DNA of 64,000 nucleotides from a phage. The notes beneath the pieces were generated by a model. That model did no database searches and was not told the origin of the DNA. It was given only the letters and a program-made list of their open reading frames with translations. The position numbers and the translations under genes are program-made. The stretch lies in the sequence record PZ445511.1. The stretch is one strand, 5' to 3'. Shown here piece by piece: positions 10,177 through 41,094 of this stretch. Each line of letters starts with the position of its first letter. The stretch's first letter is position 1.

Positions 10177-10431
10177 TTACGATTCTTTGAGCAAAGAAGC
10201 AAGTTCAGCATAGACTTTATCTAACTCAAAGCCAATGCGAAGAGACACACGAGTCTTCCGTTGTTTAAGTAACCATATGGAGACGTTAGGGATGCCAGCG
10301 AGACGAGGTGGTACAACCCTACATAGTTTCTCCGCAGTATCGTAAACAGAAGTTTTACGTTCTTTTACGGGAAACTTCCTTGTTTCCCACTTTTTATTCT
10401 TCACTATCATTTCTAGCTCCCAATTCAGCAA
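10177..10431 (-). CDS. Hypothetical protein
   Basis: 84-aa ORF. Confidence 0.4.
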   Translation of the reverse strand: MLNWELEMIVKNKKWETRKFPVKERKTSVYDTAEKLCRVVPPRLAGIPNVSIWLLKQRKTRVSLRIGFELDKVYAELASLLKES

Positions 10432-13306
10432 GAGCTTCCTCGTGCATCTGACGTTCTTCGTCTGTCATAAACTTAACTGGAATCGGCATACATTCGATCT
10501 TACAGTAAGTTCTGTACCAGTCCACAATCTTTTCCGTATCCAGATCTTTACCGATACCCATCATGCCAAGATACATACGAGCATATTTTGGGTTAGCACT
10601 CTGACCTGTCTTAAGGAAGAAATCCTTCTTCTTATTCTTAAGAGCTTCAATAAACGGTTTGATTGTTACGTTTGAACACTTCTTGATATCTTCCCAGAAC
10701 ATATCGTGCATCTTATGGAAAAATGCAGCTCGATCATTCGGTTTATCCTTGATATACTGTTCAACATGTTCCACTGTTACATCTTTAATAGAATCCAGAT
10801 GATAATAGCGAACCAGAAGTAACTTGGCTTCATATGCATCTGCATGACGTGGTGCGCAGTATTCAGGAGTTGAGTGCAAAATAGCTTTGATTCGCTCTTC
10901 TGTATACTCTTTGCCTGCACCTTCGATAGTTCCCCAGCTTTCACTGAAAATATCAATAGTTGCACCTTGATCGAGAAGATAATAACGCAAAGTACTGGTA
11001 TAGTTTCTAGATTCCAGCTCACGACGACGTGCGTACAGTTGCTGAGCTAACTCAATCCAACCCTCGTCAATATTATATTGCTCGGAACCCGCAGAGAATC
11101 CACTCGTAGATTTATCAATAAAATAATAAATGTTCTGAGCACCACGGTCGCGCCTGATTGCTTGGAAACGCATGTTTGGCGCTTGGTTTGAGGTTCTAGT
11201 GATTACGAATACGTTATCAAAATAGTTAAAGTCAACACCACTCGTTACAGATGGACTACATAACAAACAATCAATCTGTTGATCAATTAGCTCATTAGTT
11301 GTATAATCCAGAATACGTCGAATATCTACGTCTGATGTAGAGTTTGAGTGAATTTCTTTAACTAACGCACCAGTATTACGACGTAATGCCATTCCCTTTT
11401 CATTCAGTTCATCCGGTCCACAGTCAGATACTAGGATTGATTTCTCACCCATCTCTAGAGATGTTTGAAGTGCGACCCAAATACTGGATTCATCAGGGAA
11501 TTCATAAGCATGAGCTTTCGCCAGCATTTTACGGTGATGATTATAGAATGCAACTGGTTTATCAAAATCAATCAAAGAACCATAGGCTTCAATCGTTTCT
11601 GCACTGATATCACCATCAGATAAGATCACCGTTTTAGCAGTAATAAGAATATCGCGAAGGACCTGTATACATTCACGACGGTTTTTAACAACCGGAGCGA
11701 ATAACAGATCATTCATTACTGCGTCACATTCATCAATAAAGATCGTATCAATCTGACCCACAAAGCTCTTGAACTTATGGATAGAGTGAATAGTTGAAGA
11801 CATACGATCAATGGCACCACGTTTGAAGTTCAGCATATCAACTGACTTATCATACTGACCAGCACCGAATTTCTTCGCGTTTGAAGATACAAGTGCCCTA
11901 GTATTCGTGATTGCAATAAAGTTTCCTGGAAGAACACCTGCATCTAGCCACTTAGTTACTGCTGTGGTTTTACCTGTACCAAGACTTGCCTTAACAAATG
12001 TTAAATGTCCTTTTGGTGGTACAATGTTAATTTTCAGGTATGGAACTTCTGGCGGTGAATCTGTGTCCAGACGCTTTAGTGGTACACCTTTTAAGTTGGG
12101 TGGAATCTCACGTTTGGAGTTATTCACAAAGGCTTTTAGAGCCTGCTTACGACCGTTATTAAAGTAATCTTGAATATTACGACTATTATCTTTAGTTGCA
12201 ATATATTCAGATAAAGCTGGTTTAATCTCACGTTCTAACCACGTAAAGTCAACACCATCTTCTAACGCTCTGTGATAAAGTTTTGGGATAATACGCAGGT
12301 ACACCCCATCCTCAGCTTCTTCTAGTTCGCTGATGGTTTCTTCCACTTTATCAGATGCAGCTTTCTTGCCTTTAATTTGGTCAAGTAAGGAGTAGAATTC
12401 TTCTTTAAACTCACCTCTAGTTGTTTCAAAGTCAACTAGGTTATTGGGTAGATTCACTTTCGAACCCTTAACATACACAAGACGTGGTTTATTCTCCGCT
12501 TTAAACGGATCGACTATACCATCATCAAACAAGGGATCTGCGAAATAGTGAAGCTGAACAGAAGAATAATAAGCTAAGTCAGCAATATCAAAGCCATACT
12601 TTTGCTTACTACTGTCATTGATAGATGTAAATAAGAACTTTAACTGTCCCTGCGTTACCTTGACATTAGATTCTAGCATTAAGTGCATTCGGATACCTGG
12701 TTTTAATCCAGCCGAAGACGATGCATGGGCAATAAACCCTGCATCAAGAGGAAACATATCCTCACTAATACTATTCAACATCTTAATAATATGACGTGCC
12801 ATGCCAACAAGATTAAACTTGTCATAGCCACCAGTATCTACAATACCATCCACGTCCATAGCGATAATATGACTAGGATTGGATACGTTAAAGTTTCCTC
12901 TGGTACGACGCACATTATCTTTTGGAGCTAGACATTTACCACGAATAGCTACAATATGCGGGTCTTTGGTAAGACGACGCATGATAGGTAACATTTCAGC
13001 AAGGTTTTGCGGGTCAAGTTCTTCAAGTACATCAAATTTGAAGGGCATGGAAGCTGGTTTACCTTCTGGATGCTCTTTAGAGAATCGCTTTGCAAAGGTA
13101 TAATCTTCCACTTTGATCTCTTTCCAGATGCCAGTGGCTTTATCTCTGGAAAATCCTGCGTGACCTTGTAGGATTGAGAACACAACAATACTCCTATGTT
13201 GGTTATTCGAATATCTTTCTTTAGGACTATTCAAAAGAATAGAACAACTATTACTACCATTTACACAAACATTAATCATCATCAAGCAGTATGAATAAGT
13301 TATCAT
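10394..13306 (-). CDS. Large SF2 helicase-domain protein (possible replication-origin-binding / initiator helicase)
   Basis: 970 aa; Walker A ASLGTGKTT and DExD-like FIDECDAV; N-terminal approx 90 aa low complexity, so true start may be the internal Met at 13048. Confidence 0.6.
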   Translation of the reverse strand: MITYSYCLMMINVCVNGSNSCSILLNSPKERYSNNQHRSIVVFSILQGHAGFSRDKATGIWKEIKVEDYTFAKRFSKEHPEGKPASMPFKFDVLEELDPQNLAEMLPIMRRLTKDPHIVAIRGKCLAPKDNVRRTRGNFNVSNPSHIIAMDVDGIVDTGGYDKFNLVGMARHIIKMLNSISEDMFPLDAGFIAHASSSAGLKPGIRMHLMLESNVKVTQGQLKFLFTSINDSSKQKYGFDIADLAYYSSVQLHYFADPLFDDGIVDPFKAENKPRLVYVKGSKVNLPNNLVDFETTRGEFKEEFYSLLDQIKGKKAASDKVEETISELEEAEDGVYLRIIPKLYHRALEDGVDFTWLEREIKPALSEYIATKDNSRNIQDYFNNGRKQALKAFVNNSKREIPPNLKGVPLKRLDTDSPPEVPYLKINIVPPKGHLTFVKASLGTGKTTAVTKWLDAGVLPGNFIAITNTRALVSSNAKKFGAGQYDKSVDMLNFKRGAIDRMSSTIHSIHKFKSFVGQIDTIFIDECDAVMNDLLFAPVVKNRRECIQVLRDILITAKTVILSDGDISAETIEAYGSLIDFDKPVAFYNHHRKMLAKAHAYEFPDESSIWVALQTSLEMGEKSILVSDCGPDELNEKGMALRRNTGALVKEIHSNSTSDVDIRRILDYTTNELIDQQIDCLLCSPSVTSGVDFNYFDNVFVITRTSNQAPNMRFQAIRRDRGAQNIYYFIDKSTSGFSAGSEQYNIDEGWIELAQQLYARRRELESRNYTSTLRYYLLDQGATIDIFSESWGTIEGAGKEYTEERIKAILHSTPEYCAPRHADAYEAKLLLVRYYHLDSIKDVTVEHVEQYIKDKPNDRAAFFHKMHDMFWEDIKKCSNVTIKPFIEALKNKKKDFFLKTGQSANPKYARMYLGMMGIGKDLDTEKIVDWYRTYCKIECMPIPVKFMTDEERQMHEEALAELGARNDSEE

Positions 13307-13678
13307 ACCTCAGTGCTGCGCTCTCTTAACTCTTATCCAGATCAGAACCTAGGTCATTGGCCGCTAAGCCAATTCTGATTGCCCTCACTATCCTATTGGT
13401 AGGTGGCTACTGGACGTGTCACCATTCGCTGCTCTTTTCGTTCGCACCCCCATATAAAGCTCTGCCTATATAACGAGCTAAATATGCACGGTTTGGATTT
13501 ACCTTTCCGAATTCAGGGTACGCAGATCACTTAATTGATAATTAACTAATGCAGTATAAACACTAGTAATAGTTAAAACAACCCTTAATGGGGCAGCCTA
13601 ACTGTTCCGTATTGCGGACTGTAAACAAGAAAAATTAGCAAAATCAATTTTTACTAATGTCTCTCAATTCAATATAAA

Positions 13679-13707
13679 TATTATATCAAGATTTTGAGCA
13701 TCCTGCA
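13679..13707 (-). promoter_or_regulatory. Sigma70 promoter (minus strand) giving approx 365-nt leader before the 970-aa ORF
   Basis: Reverse complement ttgcag-17bp-tataat. Confidence 0.5.
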
Positions 13708-13799
13708 AGTAAAATTTTTCCGAAGGTGCTATCAGTGTCTTTGAGCACAGAGAAAACCGAGCCAAAATGACTCGGTAATCAGGATTGGGCTAACGAAAA

Positions 13800-14195
13800 T
13801 CAATCATCATTTAGACCTGGGACATAGATCCCAATGCGATTTAATTGACCTTTAGCTTCTTCGAGAATATCTTCGGTGTACTCCCAAATATCATCTTCTA
13901 CTTGCAAAAGATAAGGGGATTCACCAGTTTCGGGGTCACGTGTAATGGCTAAGCCACGTGGATGGAATATAGAGAAGTTGAGGGCAACAATCAAGCCCAT
14001 GCTGGACAATTCATTCCAGTCAGCTTCCCAACCATCATCTTCATCTTCGTCCACAAAGACACCTACACTAGGGTCTGTTACAGAAGTAAACGGAAATGTT
14101 ACACTAACCTTGTCAACCCCCAACCAACGTGCAAGGAGCCCCTCAGCACGCTCTACCAAACTAGGATCTATCTGACGCCAAAATACTTGTTCCAT
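13800..14195 (-). CDS. Hypothetical protein, paralog of adjacent 142-aa gene
   Basis: 131 aa; shares GLxxALN, acidic WExxWxEL and C-terminal G(Y/I)xxPGL blocks with neighbour. Confidence 0.55.
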   Translation of the reverse strand: MEQVFWRQIDPSLVERAEGLLARWLGVDKVSVTFPFTSVTDPSVGVFVDEDEDDGWEADWNELSSMGLIVALNFSIFHPRGLAITRDPETGESPYLLQVEDDIWEYTEDILEEAKGQLNRIGIYVPGLNDD

Positions 14196-14204
14196 TCTGC
14201 CTCC

Positions 14205-14633
14205 TTAAGCAGTTAAACCTGGGATCATATACCCGAAACGACGAAGTTTCTGAATCCCCTCATTTACTTCCTCGGGCGAATATGACCAGCCCTCACTTTC
14301 ATTTACCTGGAAAGCAGGAGCTTCACCAGTGCGATAATTTACAATAAGACGGTGATTTGCAGGCATAAACAGCTTATGGTTCAAGGCAAAAACCAGACCC
14401 ATTTCATCGAGTTCTTTCCAGTCTACAATCTCTTCTACTCCCTCCCCTAAATCCACGCTAACTCCAATACACGGAGCTTCCTCTAGTGGGCCTTTAAAAG
14501 ACAGGAAGATATCGTTATTCTCACACCAAATCTTAAGCAGATTGATGGTTTCATTGTACATACCATTAGGGAGAGAACGCCAGAAGTTGAGGAGCATAGG
14601 ATTTACCTCTTTCATGAAAATATTATTGAACAT
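14205..14633 (-). CDS. Hypothetical protein, paralog of adjacent 131-aa gene
   Basis: 142 aa; tandem duplicate pair. Confidence 0.55.
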   Translation of the reverse strand: MFNNIFMKEVNPMLLNFWRSLPNGMYNETINLLKIWCENNDIFLSFKGPLEEAPCIGVSVDLGEGVEEIVDWKELDEMGLVFALNHKLFMPANHRLIVNYRTGEAPAFQVNESEGWSYSPEEVNEGIQKLRRFGYMIPGLTA

Positions 14634-19293: not shown

Positions 19294-20046
19294 ATGGGAA
19301 AAGCACGTCAAAAAAGAGAGAACCGCAATGGTTCAAGAAAGCGTGGCAACAAGTATGAGAGTAACGTAATTCAAGCAGATTTCTCTGGTGATTACGCCAA
19401 TCCAGTTGCTAAATCCCTAGTTGGTAAAAACCGTGAGCAAAAATCATATATCAATATGATCAAGAACAACACAGTGACTGTGGGTATTGGTGAACCAGGT
19501 ACTGGTAAAACCTTTATTCCGTCCGTTCTTGCAGCTCAGGAACTCGTAGACATTCACTCAGATATTGAGCAAGTGATCCTCGTGCGTCCGAACGAACCTC
19601 TAGGTAAATCTCTTGGTATGCTCCCAGGTGATCTGGCAGAAAAGCTAGAGCCTTGGTTGGAACCAATAGCCGATGGCATGAAATGGGCAATCGGTGATCA
19701 CGCCTACAAAGGATATGTCGAACGTCAGAAAATTAAATTCCTGGCTATCGAACATGCCCGTGGCCGAACTTTCAACAACTCCTATGTAATTGTCGATGAA
19801 GCTCAGAATATCTCCGTTGAAGCAATGATCTGTCTCCTGACTCGTGTAGGACAAGATTGTCGTTTAATTATCTGTGGGGATATAGCGCAGAAAGACATCA
19901 AGGGTGATTCAGGTCTAGCACTTCTTATGGAAGTCTATGAGAAGTATGAAAACTCTCCTTTCTCTATGATCGAACTGATCGACAACGTTCGCTCACCAGA
20001 GTCTAAAGCATTCTACGATATCTTTAAGGATATGGGGAAGGTGTAA
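19294..20046 (+). CDS. phoH: PhoH-like ATPase
   Basis: P-loop GEPGTGKTF and DEAQN motif; start set to ATG 8 nt after aggag (track GTG start overlaps the RBS). Confidence 0.85.
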   Translation: MGKARQKRENRNGSRKRGNKYESNVIQADFSGDYANPVAKSLVGKNREQKSYINMIKNNTVTVGIGEPGTGKTFIPSVLAAQELVDIHSDIEQVILVRPNEPLGKSLGMLPGDLAEKLEPWLEPIADGMKWAIGDHAYKGYVERQKIKFLAIEHARGRTFNNSYVIVDEAQNISVEAMICLLTRVGQDCRLIICGDIAQKDIKGDSGLALLMEVYEKYENSPFSMIELIDNVRSPESKAFYDIFKDMGKV

Positions 20047-32927: not shown

Positions 32928-32965
32928 TAATAGTGGGGTGCCGAAACCACTTATGTAACAACACT

Positions 32966-33037
32966 GCCGTCCTAGTATAATAGGTATTATTAGGGCTTCA
33001 CCGCCTGAAGATGTGGGTTCGAGTCCCACGGTCGGAA
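32966..33037 (+). other. tRNA-like element (canonical T-arm, non-canonical anticodon arm, no CCA)
   Basis: gtgggTTCGAGTcccac T-arm plus 6-of-7 acceptor pairing; 5-nt loop where anticodon loop should be. Confidence 0.3.
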
Positions 33038-33499
33038 AGAGTTGGATAACTGGTGCTTCTAATGGCGAAGCAATCGCAGGCAGTTGCGCACTGCCAAAAC
33101 CACGCGGTAGTTGGTTCCAGGCTAACCAACCACTCTTGAAAAGTATATACTACGGTTTTGCTTGTTCAGGAAGCTTCGCATCGAAAATCGGAGGTGCGAT
33201 TTTATCAGACCGCGTGGAGGACGTCTCTCCGTTAAGTGACGAAAAGTGGGACGATTCAGGTAGAGCTGGATATGGAACACCTATACATATGCGGAGTGCG
33301 CACAAAGCATATTGCGGTGGTACTAAACGAAATTAGGAGTCATGACCTGCACAAGTTTAGTATGTCATAACCGATGTACATTCAGTACAAAAACCACTGA
33401 AGCTAAGATAGATAGTCACCTTGACTTAAACTGGAAGATATTGTCTGACGGAAGGGCTGCAGAGCTTAATCTGAGGGGGCTGACCCTACCTACCGTCGG

Positions 33500-33539
33500 G
33501 TATCTTTAAGAGTTCTTACGAGAACTCTTAAAGATACCT
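33500..33539 (+). other. Perfect 18-bp inverted repeat hairpin with TACG loop
   Basis: ggtatctttaagagttct / agaactcttaaagatacc, exact complement, 18 nt upstream of the next ORF. Confidence 0.8.
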
Positions 33540-33557
33540 AAACATTAAGGAATACTG

Positions 33558-34067
33558 ATGAATCTAGGAACTACTTGTATATTTGATCACAGAGAAATGT
33601 GTTGCCCACATATTCTGTATGTAGTTCACTTTGCAGAACGTCTTACTCTGGATGAAGCTCGTGAGAAAATGGGTGGAATTACTGGATATGATTTCCGTGA
33701 AGGTGAATACTTTAGCATTGCTCTTGATTACATTGACAATACCCGTCTCTATCATCTAGTGCAGCTAGGGGAAGAAACTGATGAAGTGAAAATGGCGAAA
33801 GATACTCTACGTCGTTATCGTCCTCAGATTCTAGAACGTACACTTCGTGGAGAACGTAGTGACCCATTGTTCTTGAAGTGCTATGACGCAGATGTTAATG
33901 AGTATCTAGGACAGCAACGGTTTTACACTGAAATCAAAGAGTTTGTTCGTGAAAAATACGACGCTCTACTAATTGATTCCAGAGCACGACGTGCAGCTAA
34001 AAATGCTGAGAAATCTGCTAAAGCAGCACTAGAAAGCCAAACCAAACTGAACGAAATCGTTAAGTGA
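33558..34067 (+). CDS. Hypothetical protein
   Basis: 169-aa ORF after aaggaa RBS. Confidence 0.55.
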   Translation: MNLGTTCIFDHREMCCPHILYVVHFAERLTLDEAREKMGGITGYDFREGEYFSIALDYIDNTRLYHLVQLGEETDEVKMAKDTLRRYRPQILERTLRGERSDPLFLKCYDADVNEYLGQQRFYTEIKEFVREKYDALLIDSRARRAAKNAEKSAKAALESQTKLNEIVK

Positions 34068-34075
34068 TCTAATTT

Positions 34076-34150
34076 CGGGGTGTAGTCTAAGGGATAGGCA
34101 GGAGTCTTCTAAATTCCTTTATGCAGGTTCGAATCCTGTCACCTCGGCCA
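34076..34150 (+). tRNA. tRNA-Arg (anticodon TCT)
   Basis: Acceptor cggggtg/cacctcg, anticodon loop cttctaa, T-arm gcaggTTCGAATcctgt, CCA encoded. Confidence 0.8.
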
Positions 34151-34176
34151 ATCTTATTACCTGTTAGGAAAATAAA

Positions 34177-34377
34177 ATGAAAACACGATATATAGTAAAA
34201 GTAGTAGGTGAACATTCGCAAGTAAATACCACGGATGTTACAGCACTAGCATTTGAGGTAGTCTCCGGTATAGTCATATTTCATAATGGGGATATCAAAG
34301 CTCCTGAATTTGCTGTGGATGCTGGCCTGTTTATTTCTGCAACTAAAGTAACTGTAGTAGCTAACTCTTCTAAATAA
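34177..34377 (+). CDS. Hypothetical protein
   Basis: 66-aa ORF just upstream of SPFH gene. Confidence 0.45.
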   Translation: MKTRYIVKVVGEHSQVNTTDVTALAFEVVSGIVIFHNGDIKAPEFAVDAGLFISATKVTVVANSSK

Positions 34378-34388
34378 TAAGGAAATAT

Positions 34389-35333
34389 ATGTTTACTAAA
34401 AACACTAAAGAACTGACTTCTGAGCAAAAAGTAATTCGTACTATTAAACGTTGGGGTGTTGGTGCTGCTATTAGTCTTGGTGCTCTTATTCTGGCTCTCA
34501 ATTCCTATACAGTTGTTCAGGATGGTACTGTTAAGACCCAAACCTTCCTGGGTAAAGTTAGCCCTAATCCTGTATTGCCAGGCTTCCATATTGTTAACCC
34601 ATTTGCTTCTTTTGATACTTTTAGTACGAAAGATATTTCCATGAAACTGGATAAACTTCAGGTTCCTAGCCAGGATAAGTTTAAGTCCACTGTTGACATT
34701 ACCGTTATGTTGCAGTTTGATGGTGCTAAAGCTCCTATGAACCGTGTTAACGCAGGTACTCAGGATCAAGCTCTGAACAAGTACGTTGAAGAGAAGATGC
34801 TGTCTACGATTCGTGAGTTTGGTAAGTCTGTACCAAAAGCACAAGATCTGTTCGACGCTAAGATTCAGGCTCAACTGCAAACCGCTATTCAGCAAGAAGT
34901 AGAAGAGTATGCGCGTCCTTATGGTTACACCGTTAAGCAAGTATTCCTTCAGGATATTACTCTGCCACCGGTAATCATGGAACAGGTACAGAACACCAAA
35001 GTTCGTGAAGAACAAGTTAACGCTGCAAAAGCTGAACTGGCTCGTGTTGAACAAGAAGCACAGCAGAAAGTTAAGCAAGCTGAGGCGGATCGTTCCGCTC
35101 GTGAAAACATGGCAGTAGCTAACGAACGTGACGCAGATGCTAAACTGTACGCAGCTAAGAAAGAAGCTGAAGCTAACGCCGCTCTGCAACGTACCATTAC
35201 TCCTGAAATGATTCGTTGGAAGCAGCTGGAAGTTGAAATGCTTCGTGCTGAAAAATACCAAGGTGGTGTACCACAGACTGTTGTCGGTACTGGCTACGAT
35301 GGTCAAATGATCATGGATATGCGTAACAAGTAA
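34389..35333 (+). CDS. SPFH/band-7 (stomatin/prohibitin-like) membrane protein
   Basis: 314 aa; N-terminal TM helix, SPFH core, long Ala/Gln/Glu coiled-coil C-terminus. Confidence 0.7.
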   Translation: MFTKNTKELTSEQKVIRTIKRWGVGAAISLGALILALNSYTVVQDGTVKTQTFLGKVSPNPVLPGFHIVNPFASFDTFSTKDISMKLDKLQVPSQDKFKSTVDITVMLQFDGAKAPMNRVNAGTQDQALNKYVEEKMLSTIREFGKSVPKAQDLFDAKIQAQLQTAIQQEVEEYARPYGYTVKQVFLQDITLPPVIMEQVQNTKVREEQVNAAKAELARVEQEAQQKVKQAEADRSARENMAVANERDADAKLYAAKKEAEANAALQRTITPEMIRWKQLEVEMLRAEKYQGGVPQTVVGTGYDGQMIMDMRNK

Positions 35334-35346
35334 TAGTTACACGTAA

Positions 35347-35383
35347 TCTTCGAACCAAGCCCGCGTTTCCTTCGAGAGCGCGG
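35347..35383 (+). terminator. Rho-independent terminator
   Basis: aagcccgcg...cgcgggctt hairpin then TTTCTATATTT. Confidence 0.6.
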
Positions 35384-35537
35384 GCTTTTCTATATTTAAG
35401 GCAAAAGAAAAAGCCCATAAGTTATTCAACTAAGGTCTTTAGTATTTAATTCTTTAGAATCATATACTATTATTGCAGCAACAACGTGCTAACCTTAAGT
35501 GCCCTGCGATTTTCCTCTAAAAAGTTAAAAAATTCGA

Positions 35538-35566
35538 TTGCTTGAATGCTAAATTCTCTGTATAAT
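35538..35566 (+). promoter_or_regulatory. Sigma70 promoter for nadR-pnuC
   Basis: ttgctt-17bp-tataat; leader identical to the one at 37402-37437. Confidence 0.6.
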
Positions 35567-35596
35567 ATATTTATAAATTTGAGAGAGGAATCAAAT

Positions 35597-36652
35597 ATGA
35601 TTAAGACTGGTCTAGTAATTGGTAAGTTCGCACCATTAACGCGTGGTCATATTAACCTAATAAACACAGCAGCAACTATGTGTGAACGAGTTATTGTTGT
35701 AGTTAGTCATGATAATCGTTGGCTGGATAAGCAGAACACACGTGATAAGGAAGTATTACAGTTAAAGAATCGACTTCGTTGGTTAGAACAAACTTACGCG
35801 GATATTGAGCACATTTCGGTAGAGTACATTATTGAAGATGATATTCCTGAATATCCGAATGGTTGGCCGGAATATGCTAGAATCCTTAATGAAAATTACG
35901 GACATTTGCCTGAGATCACCGTTTTCTCTAGCGAACTAGACTATGATGCAGAATATAAGAAATATCTGCCGAAGTTTGGTCATTATATTGTAGATTCTGA
36001 TCGGACTCGTGTTCCAATCTCAGCTACAATGATTCGTAATGATCTTATGAAGTATTGGGAGTTTCTTCCTAGCGTAGTTCGTAAAGATTACGTGCGTAAG
36101 GTTGTAATCATTGGGACTGAAAGCTCGGGAAAGACTACTTTAACAAAATACCTTGCGAAGCTATACAACACTTCGTGGGTAGAAGAATATGGTCGAACGT
36201 ATTGTGAAGTTGATCTAGTTGGTAACGAAAATCTGCTTACCAGCGAAGATTATAGTAAAATTGCGTTCAGACACAAAGAGCTAGAGTTTGAAGCAGAACG
36301 TACTGCAAATAAGATCATGTTTGTGGATACAAATGCTTTTATTACTGAGTTCTACCACAGACTTTATGAACATAGTAAGAATCCTGTGGTTACAGCAATT
36401 GCAAAAGAAGAACATTATGATTTAGTAATTGTTCTAGCGCCTACTGTCAAGTGGGTAGATGATGGTTTACGTATTAACTCCGATCGTTCAATTACTTCTG
36501 AACTATTCGAGCAGATGAAGAAAGAATTTCCAAATCAGTTCCCTGAAGGGCGTACTGTTTACATCGACTCTCCGGACTACAAAGTTCGTATGGACGAAGC
36601 AGTAAACGCAGTAGACTGGCTGATTCATCACTTTAACGTTGGAGAGTTTTAA
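35597..36652 (+). CDS. nadR: NadR-type bifunctional NMN adenylyltransferase / ribosylnicotinamide kinase
   Basis: N-terminal nucleotidyltransferase GKFAPLTRGH (HxGH-class), C-terminal P-loop GTESSGKTTL kinase; start set after gagagagg RBS. Confidence 0.75.
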   Translation: MIKTGLVIGKFAPLTRGHINLINTAATMCERVIVVVSHDNRWLDKQNTRDKEVLQLKNRLRWLEQTYADIEHISVEYIIEDDIPEYPNGWPEYARILNENYGHLPEITVFSSELDYDAEYKKYLPKFGHYIVDSDRTRVPISATMIRNDLMKYWEFLPSVVRKDYVRKVVIIGTESSGKTTLTKYLAKLYNTSWVEEYGRTYCEVDLVGNENLLTSEDYSKIAFRHKELEFEAERTANKIMFVDTNAFITEFYHRLYEHSKNPVVTAIAKEEHYDLVIVLAPTVKWVDDGLRINSDRSITSELFEQMKKEFPNQFPEGRTVYIDSPDYKVRMDEAVNAVDWLIHHFNVGEF

Positions 36653-36653
36653 T

Positions 36654-37331
36654 ATGACTAACTATCTCGTAAATGACTTTAAAAACTGGAAACCTCTGGA
36701 ATATCTGTGGCTGTTCATAGCGGTTGTCTTCATTAGTTTAGCAAACTATAATGGTACAGCTCTAGATTGGGCTACTGCAATAACCAATGTGGTTTGTGTT
36801 ATTCTGGTTGCAAAAGGACGTATTTCCAACTATATTTGGGGCTTAGTGGGTGTTCTTACATATGGTATTACAGCTTTAAACGCAGATCTTTATGGTAACG
36901 CTGCACTAAACCTGCTATACTACGTTCCTATGCAGTTTTATGGAATGTACTTATGGCATAAAAATAAGCCAAGTAATCTGCCAGATGTTCCAACTAAGGT
37001 TCTGACTAAAGCCCAAGCTCTGCTGACTCTAGGGATTCTAGCAGTAGCCACGTTAGGGTATGGTAGTTTCTTAGCTACTACGGCTGATCCATTTCCAATG
37101 TTGGATGCATTTACTGCTGTAGGTAGTGTGATCGCTATGTGGCTTATGGTTAAGCAATATGCCGAGCAGTGGCTGATCTGGATTGCTATTAACATTGGTA
37201 CTGTGTACATTTGGCTTGTAACTGCTCAATCTACAGGTGCATCTTATGCAATCCTAGCAATGTGGCTAGTATTCTTAGGTAACTCTATTATAGGAGCCTA
37301 TAAAGGATACTTTGTACGCGTTAACAAATAA
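36654..37331 (+). CDS. pnuC: PnuC-like nicotinamide riboside transporter
   Basis: Multi-helix membrane protein with conserved W/Y-rich PnuC-like blocks; coupled to nadR. Confidence 0.65.
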   Translation: MTNYLVNDFKNWKPLEYLWLFIAVVFISLANYNGTALDWATAITNVVCVILVAKGRISNYIWGLVGVLTYGITALNADLYGNAALNLLYYVPMQFYGMYLWHKNKPSNLPDVPTKVLTKAQALLTLGILAVATLGYGSFLATTADPFPMLDAFTAVGSVIAMWLMVKQYAEQWLIWIAINIGTVYIWLVTAQSTGASYAILAMWLVFLGNSIIGAYKGYFVRVNK

Positions 37332-37338
37332 AGTAGTT

Positions 37339-37364
37339 ATAGCCCTCGCTTAGAGGGCTATTAT
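37339..37364 (+). terminator. Hairpin terminator after pnuC
   Basis: atagccctc-gctta-gagggctat, weak U-tract. Confidence 0.45.
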
Positions 37365-37378
37365 ACAGAAATTTTCAC

Positions 37379-37407
37379 TTGCTTAATATAGAAAATTTCT
37401 GTATAAT
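37379..37407 (+). promoter_or_regulatory. Sigma70 promoter
   Basis: ttgctt-17bp-tataat; -10 plus leader plus RBS duplicated from nadR promoter. Confidence 0.6.
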
Positions 37408-37437
37408 ATATTTATAAATTTGAGAGAGGAATCAAAT

Positions 37438-37734
37438 ATGAAACGCATTGTACTTGCATTGACTCTAGTATCTACTTCTGTATTTGCTGCTCCACAACAG
37501 GAACTTTGTCAAGTTCAAGTTTGTAATAAGCTAGAACGATTTACTCTAGACATTTGGTCCCACATTAAAGATAATATGGGTGAACAGTGTTTTGATATTG
37601 TTCTGCCAAAAGAACAAGCTGTTCCTGGGGCTGTTCTCAGCTCAGAATCACGTTGGTGGCAAGGTTCTTCTATCAACCCAACTAAGAAGTCAGTGACACG
37701 TATCAAACAAGTATATCAGTGCAACGTTCAGTAA
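37438..37734 (+). CDS. Secreted Cys-containing protein
   Basis: Signal peptide MKRIVLALTLVSTSVFA then mature domain with 4 Cys. Confidence 0.55.
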   Translation: MKRIVLALTLVSTSVFAAPQQELCQVQVCNKLERFTLDIWSHIKDNMGEQCFDIVLPKEQAVPGAVLSSESRWWQGSSINPTKKSVTRIKQVYQCNVQ

Positions 37735-37742
37735 AATTTCAC

Positions 37743-37771
37743 TTGCTTAATGCCGAAATTTTCTGTATAAT
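37743..37771 (+). promoter_or_regulatory. Sigma70 promoter
   Basis: ttgctt-17bp-tataat. Confidence 0.55.
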
Positions 37772-37804
37772 ATATTCATAAATTTGGAAGATTAGGAACT
37801 ATTT

Positions 37805-38314
37805 ATGTTAGACTATGAGTCTATACTTTATAGATTCCGTTTAGAAGATGGTGTACTGGTGTGGAATCCGCTCTCCGGAAACTCCAGAGAGGAGAAGATA
37901 TTTAATACTAAGTTTGCCAATAAACCTGCGGGATCTTTGCACAAAAGCTCTGGGTATATCAGAGTTAACGTTGATCACCAAGATTACTTAGCTCATATCA
38001 TAGTATTTATACTATGATATGGGTATAGGCCGGAAATGGTTGATCATAAAGACTGCAATAAGTTAAATATACATCCTTTAAATTTAAGAGCAGCGGATAG
38101 TACCACTAATACTCATAATGCTAGTAAATCTTCTAGGAATACTAGCGGATTTAAGGGAGTATCCTACCACAAAGCATCTGGTCAGTGGCAGGGTAGAATA
38201 ATGTTTAAAGGTAAGTCATACTCCGCAGGGCTGCACAGTACTCCTGAAGCAGCAAATGAAGCTCTAATTCAACTGAGAGAGAAACTTCATGGGGAATATG
38301 CCCGAAATAATTAA
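37805..38314 (+). pseudogene. HNH homing endonuclease interrupted by in-frame TGA at 38015-38017
   Basis: Reading continues in the same frame across TGA: ...AHIIVFIL-stop-YGYRPEMVDHKDC..., matching the paralog sequence FIMYYGYRPEEVDHKD. Confidence 0.55.
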
Positions 38315-38403
38315 GGAAGAATAGCATAACGGTATTGCAGCAGATTGCTAATCTGTCGGTTTGAAACATAGCCTTGTGGGTTCGATTCCCACTTCTTCCG
38401 CCA
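38315..38403 (+). tRNA. tRNA-Ser (anticodon GCT), class II
   Basis: Acceptor ggaagaa/ttcttcc, anticodon loop ttgctaa, long variable arm, T-arm gtgggTTCGATTcccac, CCA. Confidence 0.75.
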
Positions 38404-38408
38404 AATTT

Positions 38409-38486
38409 GGTTCTCAAGCTCATTTGGTATGAGCCGTCGCCTCATAAGCGAAAGGTAGGTAGGTTCGAATCCTCCGGGAGCCACCA
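38409..38486 (+). tRNA. tRNA with CAT anticodon (Met or Ile2)
   Basis: Acceptor ggttctc/gggagcc (two G-U), D-arm gctc...gagc, anticodon loop ctcataa, T-loop TTCGAAT, CCA; A at position 8. Confidence 0.65.
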
Positions 38487-38635
38487 GATAACTAGGAGAC
38501 TTTATGTCACGCTTTCACGAAATTAAGCAAGAACTAGAAGAATGTATGTGTACTGAATGTTGGGGTTCTGGCACTTAATGTTCCAGTGACTGGATTCCCT
38601 GATTGGCTGCAAGGTTACGAACTCTAACAAAATTT

Positions 38636-38721
38636 GGATCTGTGGTGGAATTGGCAATACACACCATGCTTAAAACGTGGCGCTTAAATGATTGAGGGTT
38701 CGAGCCCCTCCAGATCCACCA
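38636..38721 (+). tRNA. tRNA-Leu (anticodon TAA), class II
   Basis: Acceptor ggatctg/cagatcc, anticodon loop cttaaaa, 13-nt variable arm, T-arm gagggTTCGAGCccctc, CCA. Confidence 0.75.
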
Positions 38722-38737
38722 AATTAAGGAAGTAAAA

Positions 38738-38860
38738 ATGAAATCTATTAAGAAAGCTATTCGTGAACTTATCCGTTGTCGCTTCCATAACATCAAGGCT
38801 TCAACTAATGGTACTACTTACGATCGCTATGATCCTAAGTTTGGCTTACATTCTAAATAA
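38738..38860 (+). CDS. Hypothetical small protein
   Basis: 40-aa ORF with aaggaag RBS. Confidence 0.35.
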   Translation: MKSIKKAIRELIRCRFHNIKASTNGTTYDRYDPKFGLHSK

Positions 38861-38873
38861 CTGGAGAAAACAA

Positions 38874-39080
38874 ATGGCTAATCCTGAAATTACGGCACAA
38901 CGTTTTATGCTGAAAGGAATTATTGCTGAAGCAGGCGTGACACAAGAAGTGGAAGATTTCCATAAGCAGTTCCTAAATATTCTCACTCAAGCCAAAGAGC
39001 TAGGAGAGAAAGAACATGGCGCGGCTATTATGGCAATCACATTGGTTGGGCTTGATCTGGCAGAAGAATCAGGAGTTTAA
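38874..39080 (+). CDS. Hypothetical protein
   Basis: 68 aa from ATG after ggagaaa RBS. Confidence 0.45.
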   Translation: MANPEITAQRFMLKGIIAEAGVTQEVEDFHKQFLNILTQAKELGEKEHGAAIMAITLVGLDLAEESGV

Positions 39081-39110
39081 CTTCTCCAAGCAGAAATTTT
39101 AAAAATGTAC

Positions 39111-39140
39111 TTGCTTTTTACTTAAGATTTCTGCTATAAT
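39111..39140 (+). promoter_or_regulatory. Sigma70 promoter
   Basis: ttgctt-18bp-tataat. Confidence 0.5.
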
Positions 39141-39169
39141 AGTTATATAAGTTGATGAGAGGAATCAGA

Positions 39170-39445
39170 ATGTTAAAACGTTTTGCAGCAACTGGTATTG
39201 AAAGCTCAGTATGTAAATCCTGGGGTGGTTGGGAAGGTGAGATCGAGTGGCTTTATTTCTACAATGTAGAACTTCTTCCAGAGATCAAAGCTCAATGTAT
39301 TGAGGCTGGTATGGCTCCTGATGCTACGGCTGATGTTGAAATCAGCATGAATAAGCTAGAGGGTCGAGTAGTCACTGTTACTGATGAAGGTGAAGAGGTA
39401 TTCGAACTTCCATTCACTTTGAAAGTCACTCCTTCATTTGATTAA
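39170..39445 (+). CDS. Hypothetical protein
   Basis: 91 aa from ATG after gagagg RBS. Confidence 0.5.
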   Translation: MLKRFAATGIESSVCKSWGGWEGEIEWLYFYNVELLPEIKAQCIEAGMAPDATADVEISMNKLEGRVVTVTDEGEEVFELPFTLKVTPSFD

Positions 39446-39483
39446 CTGATACAGCACTTGAGCAAGTTCTTTAAAATTTGACT

Positions 39484-39512
39484 TGCTCAAGTGCCTTAAA
39501 ACTTGATATAAT
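39484..39512 (+). promoter_or_regulatory. Sigma70 promoter for tRNA transcription unit; -35 lies inside a 13-bp inverted repeat
   Basis: ttgctc-17bp-tataat; approx 124-nt leader before tRNA-Tyr. Confidence 0.55.
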
Positions 39513-39636
39513 AGTTACCTAATTTGGAAACATATCTGAATGAGAAGTAATTAAGCGAGTTGCTTTGAGGGATAAAGTCAGGATAGCCGGAAATATTCCA
39601 CCTTGAGTTTAACCGACTTACTTTTCATTCAAATAT

Positions 39637-39717
39637 GGGGGATTGGCTCAGTGGCGACGGCGCCTGGCTGTAGACCGGGTATATCACGCGGAGGTTCGAG
39701 TCCTCCATCCCCCACCA
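39637..39717 (+). tRNA. tRNA-Tyr (anticodon GTA)
   Basis: Acceptor gggggat/atccccc, anticodon stem cctgg/ccggg with loop ctgtaga, extended variable region, T-arm ggaggTTCGAGTcctcc, CCA. Confidence 0.7.
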
Positions 39718-39725
39718 AAATTAAT

Positions 39726-39800
39726 GCACCTATCGTCTAATGGTTAGGACATCAGGATTTCAATCTGAGAATTGAACTCCGATTCTCCGTGGGTGTGCCA
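39726..39800 (+). tRNA. tRNA-Glu-like (anticodon TTC) with degenerate T-arm
   Basis: Good acceptor, D- and anticodon arms (loop atttcaa); T-arm tgaac/tccgatt/ctccg pairs poorly; CCA encoded. Confidence 0.45.
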
Positions 39801-39809
39801 ATTAATAAT

Positions 39810-39880
39810 TGGGGTACACATAGGTTGCTAGTGGGCCTCCAAAACCCATGAAAAGGTTTCGAATACCTTTACCCCTGCCA
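39810..39880 (+). tRNA. tRNA-Trp-like (anticodon CCA) with truncated D-arm
   Basis: Canonical T-arm aaggtTTCGAATacctt and CCA; anticodon loop ctccaaa with C31-A39 mismatch; U1-U72 mismatch; only 15 nt for the D region. Confidence 0.35.
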
Positions 39881-39886
39881 ATATTT

Positions 39887-39961
39887 GCACCTTTAGCTGA
39901 GATGGATTAGCGCTTGCCTGAAGAGCTTGAGAGGTTCGTTCAATTCGAACAGGGTGCACCA
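39887..39961 (+). tRNA. tRNA-Phe (anticodon GAA), weak anticodon stem
   Basis: Acceptor gcacctt/agggtgc, D-arm gctg...tagc, anticodon loop ctgaaga, T-arm gttcgTTCAATTcgaac, CCA. Confidence 0.55.
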
Positions 39962-39978
39962 ATTTGAAGGAGATGCTG

Positions 39979-40251: not shown

Positions 40252-40272
40252 ATCCTTAAAGTTCTGTATAAT
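40244..40272 (+). promoter_or_regulatory. Sigma70 promoter
   Basis: ttgctt-17bp-tataat overlapping upstream stop codon. Confidence 0.55.
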
Positions 40273-40300
40273 TATTACATAAATTGAACTGGAGAACTAG

Positions 40301-40489: not shown

Positions 40490-40491
40490 TA

Positions 40492-41091: not shown

Positions 41092-41094
41092 ATT

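What the first reader, a model, noticed from the sequence alone, without database searches (positions are those of the whole stretch)
13307..13672. About 365-nt untranslated leader between a minus-strand promoter and the 970-aa helicase gene
A good promoter at 13679-13707 is separated from the ORF start at 13306 by a GC-enriched stretch with no ORF on either strand. It may be a structured regulatory leader, a small RNA, or a DNA element such as a replication origin next to the putative initiator helicase.
Basis: inference. Interest (0 to 1): 0.55.

Follow-up and report, generated by a model that had tools for sequence, protein, structure and literature searches.

The report
Large structured leader RNA before T5 helicase D2
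The long "empty" stretch in front of the replication helicase gene of this T5-like phage encodes a roughly 490-base, intricately folded RNA that is conserved across the T5 phage family, matches no catalogued RNA family, and whose job, probably control or processing of the helicase message, is still unknown.

Summary
The window is a T5-like phage (Epseptimavirus). The flagged gene is the ortholog of T5 D2, a characterised bipolar SF2 helicase similar to origin-binding proteins.

The promoter is real: -35 at 13708-13703, TG-extended -10 at 13685-13680. The ORF start at 13306 is an annotation artefact. The conserved start is GTG 13183 behind AGGAG, so the leader is about 490 nt (13673-13184), not 365.

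The leader is a conserved, multi-helix structure on the sense strand.
- Every Demerecviridae lineage examined has the order terminator, promoter, 475-770 nt non-coding leader, D2.
- Unbiased MAFFT plus RNAalifold on 19 T5-type leaders gives 153 pairs, 99.8% kept, 12 with compensatory changes, against 0-1 when partners are slid.
- On 7 more divergent leaders it gives 101 pairs, 51 compensatory, against 9-15 slid.
- A 35-bp long-range helix encloses a core with invariant loops (CUUAGCGG, GAACAGUUNGGCUGC).
- 18% of pairs are G.U.

There is no Rfam match, no host homolog, no conserved ORF and no paper found.

The function is not resolved. My best guess is a cis-acting leader, with a binding platform plus an RNase III-type stem, that governs D2 mRNA. 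Rivals are an excised trans-acting RNA and an origin or primer element. It looks like a new RNA family in a classic model phage.

The parts
13756..13776 (-). Intrinsic terminator ending the upstream operon (stem ACCGAGTCA/TGGCTCGGT followed by a T-run)
   Evidence: The sequence is conserved in the alignment. A terminator is annotated at the equivalent place in Klebsiella phage Spivey.
13680..13708 (-). Early-class sigma-70 promoter: -35 TTGCAG (13708-13703), 17-nt spacer, extended -10 TGaTATAAT (13688-13680), then an ATATT-type discriminator
   Evidence: Read. Annotated as a putative promoter in T5 and S114. A TTGNNN-N16-18-TATAAT site lies 475-770 nt upstream of D2 in all 36 loci. Klimuk 2020 (PMC7472727) reports ATATT in the discriminator of T5 early promoters.
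13673..13673 (-). Inferred transcription start (A, 7 nt after the -10 box)
   Evidence: Inference from promoter geometry only. Not mapped.
13627..13665 (-). H1: 5'-terminal hairpin (GAGAGA.CAUUAGUAAAA / UUUUGCUAAU.UUUUCUU) followed by a U-rich tract
   Evidence: RNAalifold (16 pairs). Recovered in single-sequence folds of most of the 12 lineages. 6 of 8 core pairs covary across genera.
13578..13622 (-). P2: irregular hairpin carrying the near-invariant motif GAUACGGAACAGUUAGGCUGCCCCAU (13613-13588)
   Evidence: helix 2. The motif is conserved in Klebsiella, Pectobacterium, L047 and L061 lineages. The CAGU/GCUG pair changes to CGGU/GCCG in L061 (pair 97-105).
13535..13575 (-). P3 5' arm: long-range irregular helix, 35 bp in two segments
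   Evidence: It pairs with 13285-13245. The homologous helix has a different sequence in B-type, L047, L061, My1 and Klebsiella leaders.
13245..13285 (-). P3 3' arm. It lies inside the 41 codons wrongly annotated as the start of the helicase ORF.
   Evidence: (helices 3 and 4, over 99% of cells paired).
13515..13531 (-). P4 5' strand (AGUGAUCUGCGUACCCU; core CUGCG) closing the central domain
   Evidence: It pairs with 13326-13312. The core is CUGCG/CGCAG here, CUGUG/CACAG in T5, CUACA/UGUAG in L054, L047 and My1, CUGUA/UACAG in L061, CUAGA/UCUAG in Klebsiella phage and CCAUA/UAUGG in phiR2-01.
13312..13326 (-). P4 3' strand
   Evidence: (helix 5).
13327..13514 (-). GC-richer central multi-helix domain (P5 13492-13446, GNRA-like GCGAA loop region, helices h11 and h12, P6). 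It exists as at least two diverged cassette types in close relatives.
   Evidence: helices 6-14. This segment is 92% identical in T5 but 57-59% in B-type phages, while the flanks are 84-98% identical.
13341..13379 (-). P6 hairpin: outer helix AUCAGAAUU/GGUUCUGAU, inner GGC/GCC, invariant loop in CUUAGCGG (13368-13361)
   Evidence: CUUAGCGG is invariant in all 12 lineages. The outer helix has a different sequence in every lineage: 7 of 8 pairs covary (helix 5) and 7 of 8 in the unbiased alignment (helix 15).
13288..13309 (-). P7 hairpin (GGUAUGA-UAACUUAU-UCAUACU). It contains the ATG (13306-13304) that many records use as the helicase start.
   Evidence: helix 15, 2 compensatory pairs within the T5 type. 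The stem is GUGG/CCAC, GGGG/CCCC, GGAGG/CUUCC, AAGGG/CCCUU or GAGG/CCUC in other lineages.
13227..13242 (-). P8 hairpin (CUAUUC-UUUU-GAAUAG) between P3 and the ribosome-binding site
   Evidence: helix 16. Covaries across genera: CUAUC/GAUAG, CUUUC/GAAAG, UACUA/UAGUA (helix 7).
13181..13195 (-). Shine-Dalgarno AGGAG (13195-13191) and the true start codon GTG (13183-13181) of D2
10394..13183 (-). D2 gene (929 aa): T5 D2-type SF2 helicase, 'replication origin binding protein'
   Evidence: PF02399 Herpes_ori_bp. phrog_3712 over the full length. T5 annotation D2/T5p106. Wong et al. 2013, PMC3632103.

Best explanation
The stretch is the DNA for a large structured RNA of about 490 nt. It is the 5' leader of the mRNA for the replication helicase D2.

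Shown:
- It is transcribed-strand specific and non-coding.
- It sits behind its own early-type sigma-70 promoter, with no terminator before D2.
- Its fold is conserved through compensatory changes across Demerecviridae genera. The fold has a 5' hairpin (H1), a hairpin with an invariant motif (P2), a 35-bp long-range helix (P3) that encloses a multi-helix core (P4-P7) with invariant loops, then a small hairpin (P8) and the ribosome-binding site.

Inferred mechanism:
- The leader acts in cis on D2 production after transcription has started.
- The invariant loops and junctions of the core form a binding platform, for a phage or host protein (possibly D2 itself) or for a small ligand.
- The long P3 duplex is an RNase III-type processing and stability element. 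It separates the core from the D2 message and leaves the message with a 5' hairpin (P8).

Confidence, split:
- It is a functional, conserved structured RNA: about 0.9.
- Its role is cis control or processing of D2 mRNA rather than a trans or origin role: about 0.4.
For: Architecture. Terminator, promoter, 475-770 nt ORF-free leader, D2 is found in every lineage examined.

Conservation. The 5' 97 nt are 98% identical where D2 is 83-87% identical.

Structure, unbiased alignments.
- 19 T5-type leaders: 153 pairs, 99.8% of cells paired, 12 pairs with double changes. Shuffles give 4.6+-1.3 (0 of 500 reach 12). Slid partners give 0-1.
- 7 divergent leaders: 101 pairs, 51 with double changes. Shuffles give 20.6+-3.4 (0 of 500). 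Slid partners give 9-15. 91.7% of cells are paired against 40-46% slid.

Structure, hand-extracted. Eight helices in 12 lineages, with colinearity checked: 38 of 43 pairs covary.

Independent single-sequence folds recover H1, P3, P6, P7 and P8 in most lineages. MFE z-scores run from -2 to -5 in 8 of 10 lineages.

Strand. 27 of 153 pairs are G.U. The sense strand folds at -140.7 kcal/mol (z -4.16), the antisense at -103.5 (z -2.67).

No terminator-like site lies between promoter and D2. No conserved ORF.

P3 is 19+16 bp around an internal loop. That geometry matches RNase III substrates, which I state from established knowledge of T7 and rRNA processing stems.
Against: - No experimental transcript data exist for this region in the literature I could search.
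- No conserved long-range helix sequesters the Shine-Dalgarno or start codon. The best partner of the SD region differs in every lineage. The classic riboswitch or translational-operator geometry is therefore not seen.
- In Providencia and Proteus phages the core lies at least 250 nt from the D2 start.
- Proteus phage Stubb has a consensus TTGACA-N18-TATAAT only 37 nt before D2. There D2 may be expressed without the leader.
- RNase III cleavage is pure inference.
- The fold is equally favourable with DNA parameters (z -4.34). Thermodynamics therefore cannot separate RNA from sense-strand ssDNA.
Confidence: 0.55

Rival explanations
1. An excised, trans-acting non-coding RNA. The P3 duplex works like the processing stalks of rRNA precursors. 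The roughly 270-nt core is cut out and acts on its own, for example as an RNP scaffold, a decoy for a host factor or defence system, or a catalytic RNA. Its position before D2 only provides early transcription.
For: - The core has invariant loops and junctions while its helices vary freely. This is typical of RNAs with a tertiary fold or a partner.
- The core is bounded exactly by a long duplex.
- Core cassettes are exchanged as modules between close relatives: 57-59% identity inside against 84-98% in the flanks.
- The distance to the D2 start is not conserved in Providencia and Proteus phages, and Stubb has a promoter between the RNA and D2.
- There is no conserved pairing with the ribosome-binding site.
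Against: - The element is always directly upstream of D2, on the same strand, in every lineage seen. A free-standing RNA gene would be expected to move.
- No terminator follows the core.
- No second copy was looked for beyond an exact CTTAGCGG scan of the window. That scan gave two other matches, at the chance level, and I did not examine them.
Confidence: 0.22
2. A replication-origin element. Transcription from the early promoter through this region yields a structured primer or R-loop RNA, as with ColE1 RNA II or the T4 and T7 transcription-dependent origins. Alternatively, the sense-strand ssDNA folds into hairpins that recruit D2 or a primase next to the initiator gene.
For: - The neighbour is the only T5 protein with similarity to herpesvirus origin-binding helicases.
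- In T5 the site lies at 48.9% of the genome (D2 start 59545 of 121750).
- The T5 origin has never been mapped at sequence level.
- A strong promoter is followed by an AT-rich, ultra-conserved 150 nt.
- The only perfect copy in 64 kb of the HSV UL9 box I core CGTTCGCAC lies in the leader, at 13439-13447.
- The fold is as good with DNA parameters.
Against: - The cumulative GC-skew minimum is at about 19.5-20 kb, where transcription diverges, not at 13.5 kb.
- The UL9-like 9-mer is absent from B-type and other genera. With one mismatch the motif is at chance frequency.
- No iterons or direct repeats were found.
- Recombitron strand bias in T5 suggested dominant unidirectional replication from one genome end (PMC10055335).
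- 18% G.U pairs are more natural in RNA than as G.T in DNA.
Confidence: 0.18
3. The region encodes small proteins, or the first 41 codons of the helicase, as annotated in many GenBank records. On this view the conservation is coding conservation.
For: Records annotate a 970-aa ORF from the ATG at 13306. They also annotate small ORFs of 33-61 aa in the region.
Against: - The longest minus-strand ORF in the leader is 21 aa.
- The annotated small ORFs differ from record to record.
- 1-nt indels break the 41-codon extension.
- Eight lineages have no in-frame upstream start.
- Substitutions follow a base-pairing pattern, not a codon pattern.
Confidence: 0.02
4. Non-functional spacer or debris of mobile elements. 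On this view the apparent structure is a by-product of relatedness and composition.
For: Mobile DNA does visit the locus. An HNH homing-endonuclease cassette lies just upstream in some relatives, and a 97-nt insertion lies after H1 in others. Two of ten lineages have unremarkable folding z-scores.
Against: - Compensatory changes exceed both shuffled and slid controls in two unbiased alignments.
- The same helices sit at the same relative positions in genera whose sequences no longer align. nhmmer finds nothing, yet P4, P6 and H1 are present.
- Invariant loops persist across genera.
Confidence: 0.03

Closest known systems
RNase III processing stems in phage and rRNA transcripts (T7 early mRNA sites, the lambda N leader, the 16S/23S precursor stalks)
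   Same: A long irregular duplex, here 19+16 bp around an internal loop. It is formed by sequences that flank a structured domain, lies inside a phage early transcript, and is followed by the ribosome-binding region of the next gene.
   Different: Cleavage is untested. Those sites are simple hairpins or stalks. Here the duplex encloses a conserved core of about 200 nt with invariant loops, which a mere processing site would not need.
Large, complex-folded bacterial and phage RNAs of unknown function (GOLLD, ROOL, HEARO, OLE, raiA)
   Same: Several hundred nucleotides long. Many helices are supported by covariation. Invariant nucleotides are concentrated in loops and junctions. Phage-borne. Function not deducible from sequence.
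   Different: No match to any of these Rfam models, even at E<=10. It is fixed in the 5' leader of one gene family (D2), not near tRNA clusters or free-standing. It was found only in T5-like phages.
ColE1 RNA II and the transcription-primed origins of T4 (oriF, oriG) and T7
   Same: A strong promoter about 0.5 kb upstream, a long structured transcript, and a position next to replication genes.
   Different: No antisense regulator, no mapped origin, no RNase H site, and no skew signal. The transcript continues into a protein-coding gene.
Autogenous translational operators of phage replication genes (T4 gene 32 pseudoknot, gene 43 hairpin) and riboswitch leaders
   Same: A structured 5' UTR of a replication gene. 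It is consistently located upstream of one gene family, which is the usual signature of cis-regulation.
   Different: About ten times larger than the T4 operators. There is no conserved helix that occludes the Shine-Dalgarno or start codon. No terminator or antiterminator pair was detected. No known aptamer was detected.

Membership tests
Any Rfam 15 family (riboswitches, RNase P, tmRNA, 6S, group I/II introns, HEARO, GOLLD, ROOL, ribozymes, sRNAs) | Covariance-model score at or above the family's gathering threshold | tested here: not met
   No hit in 13000-13900 at gathering threshold or at E<=10, apart from chance-level fragments. None in the Klebsiella, Pectobacterium or Providencia loci at E<=1.
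Structured cis-regulatory leader RNA (generic class) | Non-coding, on the sense strand, between a promoter and the regulated gene, consistently upstream of the same gene family | tested here: met
Structured cis-regulatory leader RNA (generic class) | Secondary structure conserved through compensatory substitutions | tested here: met
Structured cis-regulatory leader RNA (generic class) | An expression platform: alternative pairing with the SD or start codon, or a terminator/antiterminator | tested here: not met
   No conserved partner of the SD region. No terminator-like site in the leader. Only a weak local 5-bp hairpin over AG..GUG (helix 17).
Structured cis-regulatory leader RNA (generic class) | A change in downstream gene expression when the element or its effector is altered | not testable with these tools
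   Needs reporter fusions or phage mutants.
RNase III substrate | About two helical turns or more of mostly Watson-Crick dsRNA, often interrupted by an internal loop | tested here: met
   P3 is 19 + 16 bp around a 3x4 internal loop. An equivalent helix is present in other lineages.
RNase III substrate | Staggered cleavage in vivo that depends on rnc | not testable with these tools
   Needs RNA-end mapping in wild-type and rnc hosts.
Transcription-primed replication origin (ColE1 RNA II, T4 ori, T7 primary origin type) | A promoter upstream of an AT-rich or unwinding region next to replication genes | tested here: met
   The promoter and the 31% GC 5' leader lie next to D2.
Transcription-primed replication origin (ColE1 RNA II, T4 ori, T7 primary origin type) | Mapped initiation of DNA synthesis or an R-loop at the site | not testable with these tools
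   There is no sequence-level origin map for T5.
Transcription-primed replication origin (ColE1 RNA II, T4 ori, T7 primary origin type) | A compositional-skew switch at the origin | tested here: not met
   The cumulative GC-skew minimum is at about 19.5-20 kb, not at 13.5 kb. It is confounded by the direction of transcription.
Herpesvirus-type origin (UL9 boxes) | Two or more conserved copies of the initiator recognition box flanking an AT-rich spacer | tested here: not met
   One perfect CGTTCGCAC at 13439-13447 only. It is not conserved in B-type or other genera. The box sequence itself is recalled from memory.

The most novel reading that the evidence does not exclude
The D2 leader is a new class of large functional RNA, and it may be the missing cis element of T5 replication initiation. 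On this reading the early transcript folds into a specific core that is recognised by the D2 helicase. It is then converted, by P3 processing or R-loop formation, into the primer or loading site for the first replication forks. This would be an RNA II-like origin in a virulent phage. Failing that, the core may be a new ribozyme or riboswitch class.
Probability: 0.2. Interest if true: 0.9.

Novelty: new variant of a known kind. Interest (0 to 1): 0.68.

Why it matters
T5 has been a textbook phage for 70 years, yet its replication origin and the control of its initiator helicase are unknown.

A multi-helix RNA of about 490 nt sits directly in front of that helicase. It has family-wide covariation and invariant loops, and it is absent from Rfam and from the literature I could search. 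It would add a new member to the very short list of large complex-folded prokaryotic RNAs.

It is also directly testable in a tractable system: T5 and BF23 in E. coli K-12, rnc mutants, and cloned D2.

There is a practical consequence as well. Many GenBank records give the helicase a spurious 41-residue N-terminus, or invent small ORFs in this region. That misleads protein expression and comparative work.

Tried and rejected
- Rfam at gathering and at permissive thresholds, on the window and on three distant loci: nothing.
- Host origin of the RNA: blastn of 13240-13600 against 5,426 E. coli genomes gave no match.
- IMG/VR scan for the P2 motif ACRGAACAGTNNGGCTGC. The 32 hits on T5-like genome contigs are true hits. 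The 9 hits on metagenomic contigs, when examined, looked like chance matches in apparently protein-coding sequence.
- Anti-Shine-Dalgarno idea. The U/C tract after H1 can pair with AGGAG in some lineages, and RNAalifold proposed this (helix 1). A systematic scan shows that the best SD partner differs in every lineage. Rejected as a conserved feature.
- UL9 box I as a D2 binding site: a single copy, not conserved. Kept only as a lead.
- GC skew as origin evidence: the minimum is elsewhere.
- Iterons and direct repeats: only short two-copy chance matches.
- nhmmer profile of the leaders against the Vibrio, Aeromonas, Proteus and Providencia loci: no hits. Membership of Providencia and Proteus therefore rests on the CUUAGCGG hairpin plus hand-found P4 and H1 helices. 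Vibrio is unresolved.
- MAFFT alignment of trimmed P6 hairpins misaligned the 3' strands. I therefore used an equal-length helix-only alignment rather than a covariance model. No CM was built.
- AlphaFold2 of the D2 N-terminal 380 aa without an alignment gave pLDDT 39 and was unusable. PDB sequence search of that domain was uninformative.
- Pfam and PHROGs of the neighbouring genes gave only DUF7415 and unknown function.
- Bourguignon 1976 (T5 origins by electron microscopy) is not held in the library.
- Five literature searches found no description of this RNA. A sixth, on the T5 origin and intergenic region, also found nothing.
Full report
WHAT THE WINDOW IS

The 751 bases around the finding are 99% identical to Salmonella Epseptimavirus phages and 84-92% identical to Tequintavirus phages, including T5. 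538 phage records match. The window carries 28 tRNA genes, as T5-like phages do. The "970-aa helicase" is the ortholog of T5 gene D2 (T5p106). It matches phrog_3712 'replication origin binding' end to end and Pfam Herpes_ori_bp. Wong et al. 2013 characterised D2 biochemically as an unusual bipolar SF2 helicase and proposed it as a replication initiator (PMC3632103).

CHECK OF THE OBSERVATION

The promoter exists.
- The -35 is TTGCAG at 13708-13703, followed by a 17-nt spacer.
- A TG lies at 13688-13687 and the -10 TATAAT at 13685-13680.
- The simple scan missed it because the -35 matches only 3 of 6. The extended -10 compensates for that.
- The site is annotated as a putative promoter in T5 and S114.
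- TTGNNN-N16-18-TATAAT is found 475-770 nt upstream of the D2 start in all 36 loci tested.
- Its discriminator fits the ATATT signature that Klimuk et al. report for T5 early promoters (PMC7472727).
- An intrinsic terminator at 13776-13756 precedes it. No terminator-like site follows it before D2.

The ATG at 13306 is not the start codon.
- AGGAG-N7-GTG (13195-13181) is identical or nearly so in all 15 loci first examined.
- tblastn and the protein alignment show conservation from residue 1 (MFSILQGH...) out to Klebsiella, Pectobacterium and Providencia phages.
- T5-type leaders carry 1-nt indels between the two candidate starts.
- Eight lineages have no in-frame upstream start at all.
- T5 itself and many records annotate the 929-aa form.

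The leader is therefore about 490 nt, from 13673 (inferred +1) to 13184. The GC-rich character applies only to about 13300-13500. The first third is 31% GC.

CONSERVED ARCHITECTURE

The order terminator, promoter, long ORF-free leader, D2 holds in every lineage looked at:
- Tequintavirus and Epseptimavirus
- Yersinia phiR2-01
- Klebsiella Sugarlandvirus
- Pectobacterium My1
- Providencia (Priunavirus)
- Proteus Stubb
- two unnamed metagenomic and viral lineages, L047 and L061

Sequence motifs survive across genera. They are GAUACGGAACAGUUNGGCUGCCCCAU, (G/U)AUCU, GAGAAGUG, CUUAGCGG, and GUUGCCA in a loop.

Within Markadamsvirinae the first 97 nt of the leader are 98% identical, even between phages whose D2 genes are 83-87% identical. 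The central part comes in at least two diverged cassettes. The T5 and window type is found in 277 records. A second type is 57-59% identical. That second type resembles the L047, L061 and My1 version.

SECONDARY STRUCTURE AND COVARIATION

I ran three analyses.

(1) Unbiased, close relatives. MAFFT plus RNAalifold on 19 distinct T5-type leaders predicts 153 pairs. On that alignment:
- 99.8% of cells are standard pairs.
- 12 pairs carry changes on both sides. Shuffles give 4.6+-1.3, and 0 of 500 reach 12. Slid 3' partners give 0-1.
- The covariation score is 0.066, against 0.006-0.018 slid.

(2) Unbiased, divergent. The same procedure on 7 leaders of the second type plus L061, L047 and My1 gives 101 pairs, 51 with compensatory changes. 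Controls:
- Shuffles give 20.6+-3.4 (0 of 500).
- Slid partners give 9-15.
- 91.7% of cells are paired, against 40-46% slid.

(3) Hand-extracted. For 12 lineages I extracted the strands of eight helix segments and verified by script that they occur in the same order in each leader. I placed them in an equal-length alignment. In that alignment 98.9% of cells pair and 38 of 43 pairs covary. The covariation score is 0.642, against 0.165 shuffled and 0.05-0.09 slid. This third set is biased by my selection and should be read as a summary, not as a test.

Independent support comes from single-sequence folding. Minimum-energy folds of 12 lineages recover the 5' hairpin, the long-range helix, the UUAGCG hairpin, P7 and P8 in most cases. 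Folding z-scores run from -2 to -5 in 8 of 10 lineages. L061 and the Klebsiella phage are unremarkable.

THE FOLD IN WINDOW COORDINATES

- H1: 13665-13627.
- P2, with the invariant motif: 13622-13578.
- P3: 13575-13535 pairs with 13285-13245. It is 35 bp in two segments.
- P4: 13531-13515 pairs with 13326-13312 and closes the core.
- P5: 13492-13446.
- P6: 13379-13341, with CUUAGCGG at 13368-13361.
- P7: 13309-13288. It contains the mis-annotated ATG.
- P8: 13242-13227.
- Then AGGAG and GTG.

Two examples of covariation:
- P4 core: CUGCG/CGCAG (window), CUGUG/CACAG (T5), CUACA/UGUAG (L054, L047, My1), CUGUA/UACAG (L061), CUAGA/UCUAG (Klebsiella), CCAUA/UAUGG (phiR2-01).
- P6 outer helix: AUCAG/CUGAU, AAUAG/CUAUU, AUUGA/UCAAU, CAAAU/AUUUG, GUGGU/ACCAC, GUGCG/UGCAC, AUACG/CGUAU, CCACA/UGUGG, CACCU/AGGUG, CCACG/CGUGG.

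WHICH STRAND, AND RNA OR DNA?

27 of the 153 pairs in the window are G.U. These would be A.C mismatches on the other strand. The sense strand folds at -140.7 kcal/mol (z -4.16) and the antisense at -103.5 (z -2.67). The structure therefore belongs to the strand that is transcribed into the D2 mRNA.

With DNA parameters the sense strand folds similarly (z -4.34). Thermodynamics alone cannot exclude a structure in the displaced sense-strand DNA. The dedicated promoter in every lineage and the G.U content favour RNA.

WHAT IT IS NOT

- Not coding.
- Not any Rfam family.
- Not derived from the host.
- Not found outside T5-like genomes by motif scan.
- Not described in the papers I could search.

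MODULARITY

- 51 phage records carry an extra 97-nt, GC-rich, hairpin-forming module right after H1. There is one copy per genome, between UUUUUCUU-like repeats.
- Some relatives carry an HNH homing-endonuclease cassette between the upstream gene and the leader. In mar003J3 that cassette has its own promoter and is followed by a fresh TTGCAA-17-TATAAT directly before the leader. The leader therefore keeps a promoter.
- Homing-associated co-conversion could explain the near-identity of the 5' leader among otherwise diverged phages. This is inference.

HOW IT MIGHT WORK

Shown: a conserved, strand-specific, multi-domain fold, co-linear with D2, with no terminator between them.

Inferred: the strict position upstream of one gene family is the usual signature of cis-regulation. 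The invariant loops suggest a bound partner. The P3 duplex has the size and interrupted geometry of RNase III substrates. Cleavage there would free the core and leave the D2 message starting near hairpin P8.

Against a classic riboswitch or operator:
- No conserved helix occludes the ribosome-binding site.
- The core is at least 250 nt from the start codon in Providencia and Proteus phages.
- Stubb has a consensus promoter between the RNA and D2.

These points keep an excised trans-acting RNA as a serious rival.

The origin hypothesis has some attractions:
- The neighbour is similar to origin-binding helicases.
- The site lies at the genome midpoint in T5.
- The T5 origin is unmapped.
- One perfect UL9-box-like 9-mer lies in the leader.

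It also has weaknesses. It has no skew support and no repeats. The 9-mer is not conserved. Recombitron data suggested replication mainly from one genome end.

I put about 0.9 on 'functional structured RNA'. Within that, I put roughly 0.4 on cis control or processing of D2 mRNA, 0.2-0.25 on a trans-acting excised RNA, and about 0.2 on an origin or primer role.

COMPARISON AND NOVELTY

The element works most like a structured leader combined with an RNase III-type processing stalk, as in the lambda N leader, T7 early sites and rRNA stalks. In size and complexity it resembles the large orphan RNAs GOLLD, ROOL, HEARO and OLE. It is a member of none of them, because the defining model scores are not met. 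I rate it a new variant of a known kind: a new RNA family in a familiar genomic role.

LIMITS

- There are no transcript or probing data.
- No full-length covariance model was built and no R-scape statistics were run.
- The core structure between P4 and P6 differs between the two cassette types and is only partly solved.
- Providencia and Proteus membership rests on motifs and hand-found helices. nhmmer finds no similarity.
- Vibrio and Aeromonas T5-like phages also have 0.7-1.3 kb gene-poor regions before D2. Homology there is not established.

Noticed in passing
window 13184-13306 (-): Many GenBank and RefSeq records of T5-like phages start the D2 helicase at an upstream ATG (970 aa here). 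This adds 41 spurious residues that are in fact the P7 hairpin and the P3 3' arm of the leader RNA. Other records invent ORFs of 33-61 aa in the leader.
   Followed up: yes
L031:701-1303, L013, L005 (equivalent to an insertion after window 13627): An optional 97-nt GC-rich module with its own 8-bp hairpin (AUUUACGG/CCGUAAAU) is inserted right after hairpin H1, between UUUUUCUU-like repeats. It occurs in 51 phage records, with one copy per genome. The records include both Tequintavirus and Epseptimavirus phages (taxonomy).
   Followed up: partly
L003:1050-1680, L004, L008 (equivalent to window about 13790-13686): An HNH homing-endonuclease cassette is inserted between the upstream gene and the leader in some relatives. 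In mar003J3 it has its own promoter and is followed by a new TTGCAA-17-TATAAT promoter directly before the leader. Homing co-conversion might explain the 98% identity of the 5' leader across diverged phages.
   Followed up: partly
window 13439-13447 (+): The only perfect copy in the 64-kb window of CGTTCGCAC lies inside the leader. This is the core of the HSV UL9 origin-binding box I (sequence recalled from memory). It sits next to the UL9-like gene. It is not conserved in B-type leaders or in other genera.
   Followed up: partly
window 13316-13521 versus L032, L054, L040: The central domain of the leader is mosaic. It is 57-59% identical between two groups of close relatives, while the flanks are 84-98% identical. 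The second cassette resembles that of distant lineages (L047, L061, My1). This suggests exchange of the RNA core as a module bounded by the P3 arms.
   Followed up: partly
L064:705-1416, L065:329-1431, L066:773-1500, L067:1-1308: Vibrio and Aeromonas T5-like phages also have 0.7-1.3 kb GC-rich regions before D2 that are gene-poor or hold only tiny annotated ORFs. The Vibrio regions start with promoter-like sequence at the 5' end. Aeromonas phage TS3 holds three UUAGCGG motifs, and one of them is the loop of a perfect 10-bp hairpin. Homology to the T5-type leader is not established.
   Followed up: partly
L049:about 1235-1264 (Proteus phage Stubb): A consensus TTGACA-N18-TATAAT lies only 37 nt upstream of the D2 start, downstream of the structured region. 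In this lineage D2 may be transcribed without the leader.
   Followed up: no
window 13076-13104 (+): A promoter-like site (TTTAGA-17-TATAAT, 10 of 12) lies inside the first D2 codons and points antisense towards the ribosome-binding site and leader. The count of such sites in the region is at the chance level.
   Followed up: no
window 32965-46835 (+): A cluster of 28 tRNA genes. It includes one that ARAGORN calls tRNA-SeC with anticodon TCA, which would read UGA. Its Rfam score of 33 bits is only just above threshold.
   Followed up: no
window 13800-14633 (-): Two tandem paralogous genes (131 and 142 aa; DUF7415, phrog_2502) lie directly upstream of the terminator. Records annotate them variously as RNA-binding protein, exonuclease or tRNA amidotransferase.
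   Followed up: partly
window about 19500-20000: The cumulative GC-skew minimum of the window lies here. I take this to be a switch from minus-strand to plus-strand genes, but I did not list the genes around 20 kb.
   Followed up: no
window 13646-13720 (-) versus H90-H100: The promoter plus the first transcribed bases (TTGAGAGA...) is similar to sequences at other loci of Klebsiella, Proteus and Providencia T5-like phages (two places per record in several Klebsiella phage records). It looks like a shared T5-type early promoter module.
   Followed up: no
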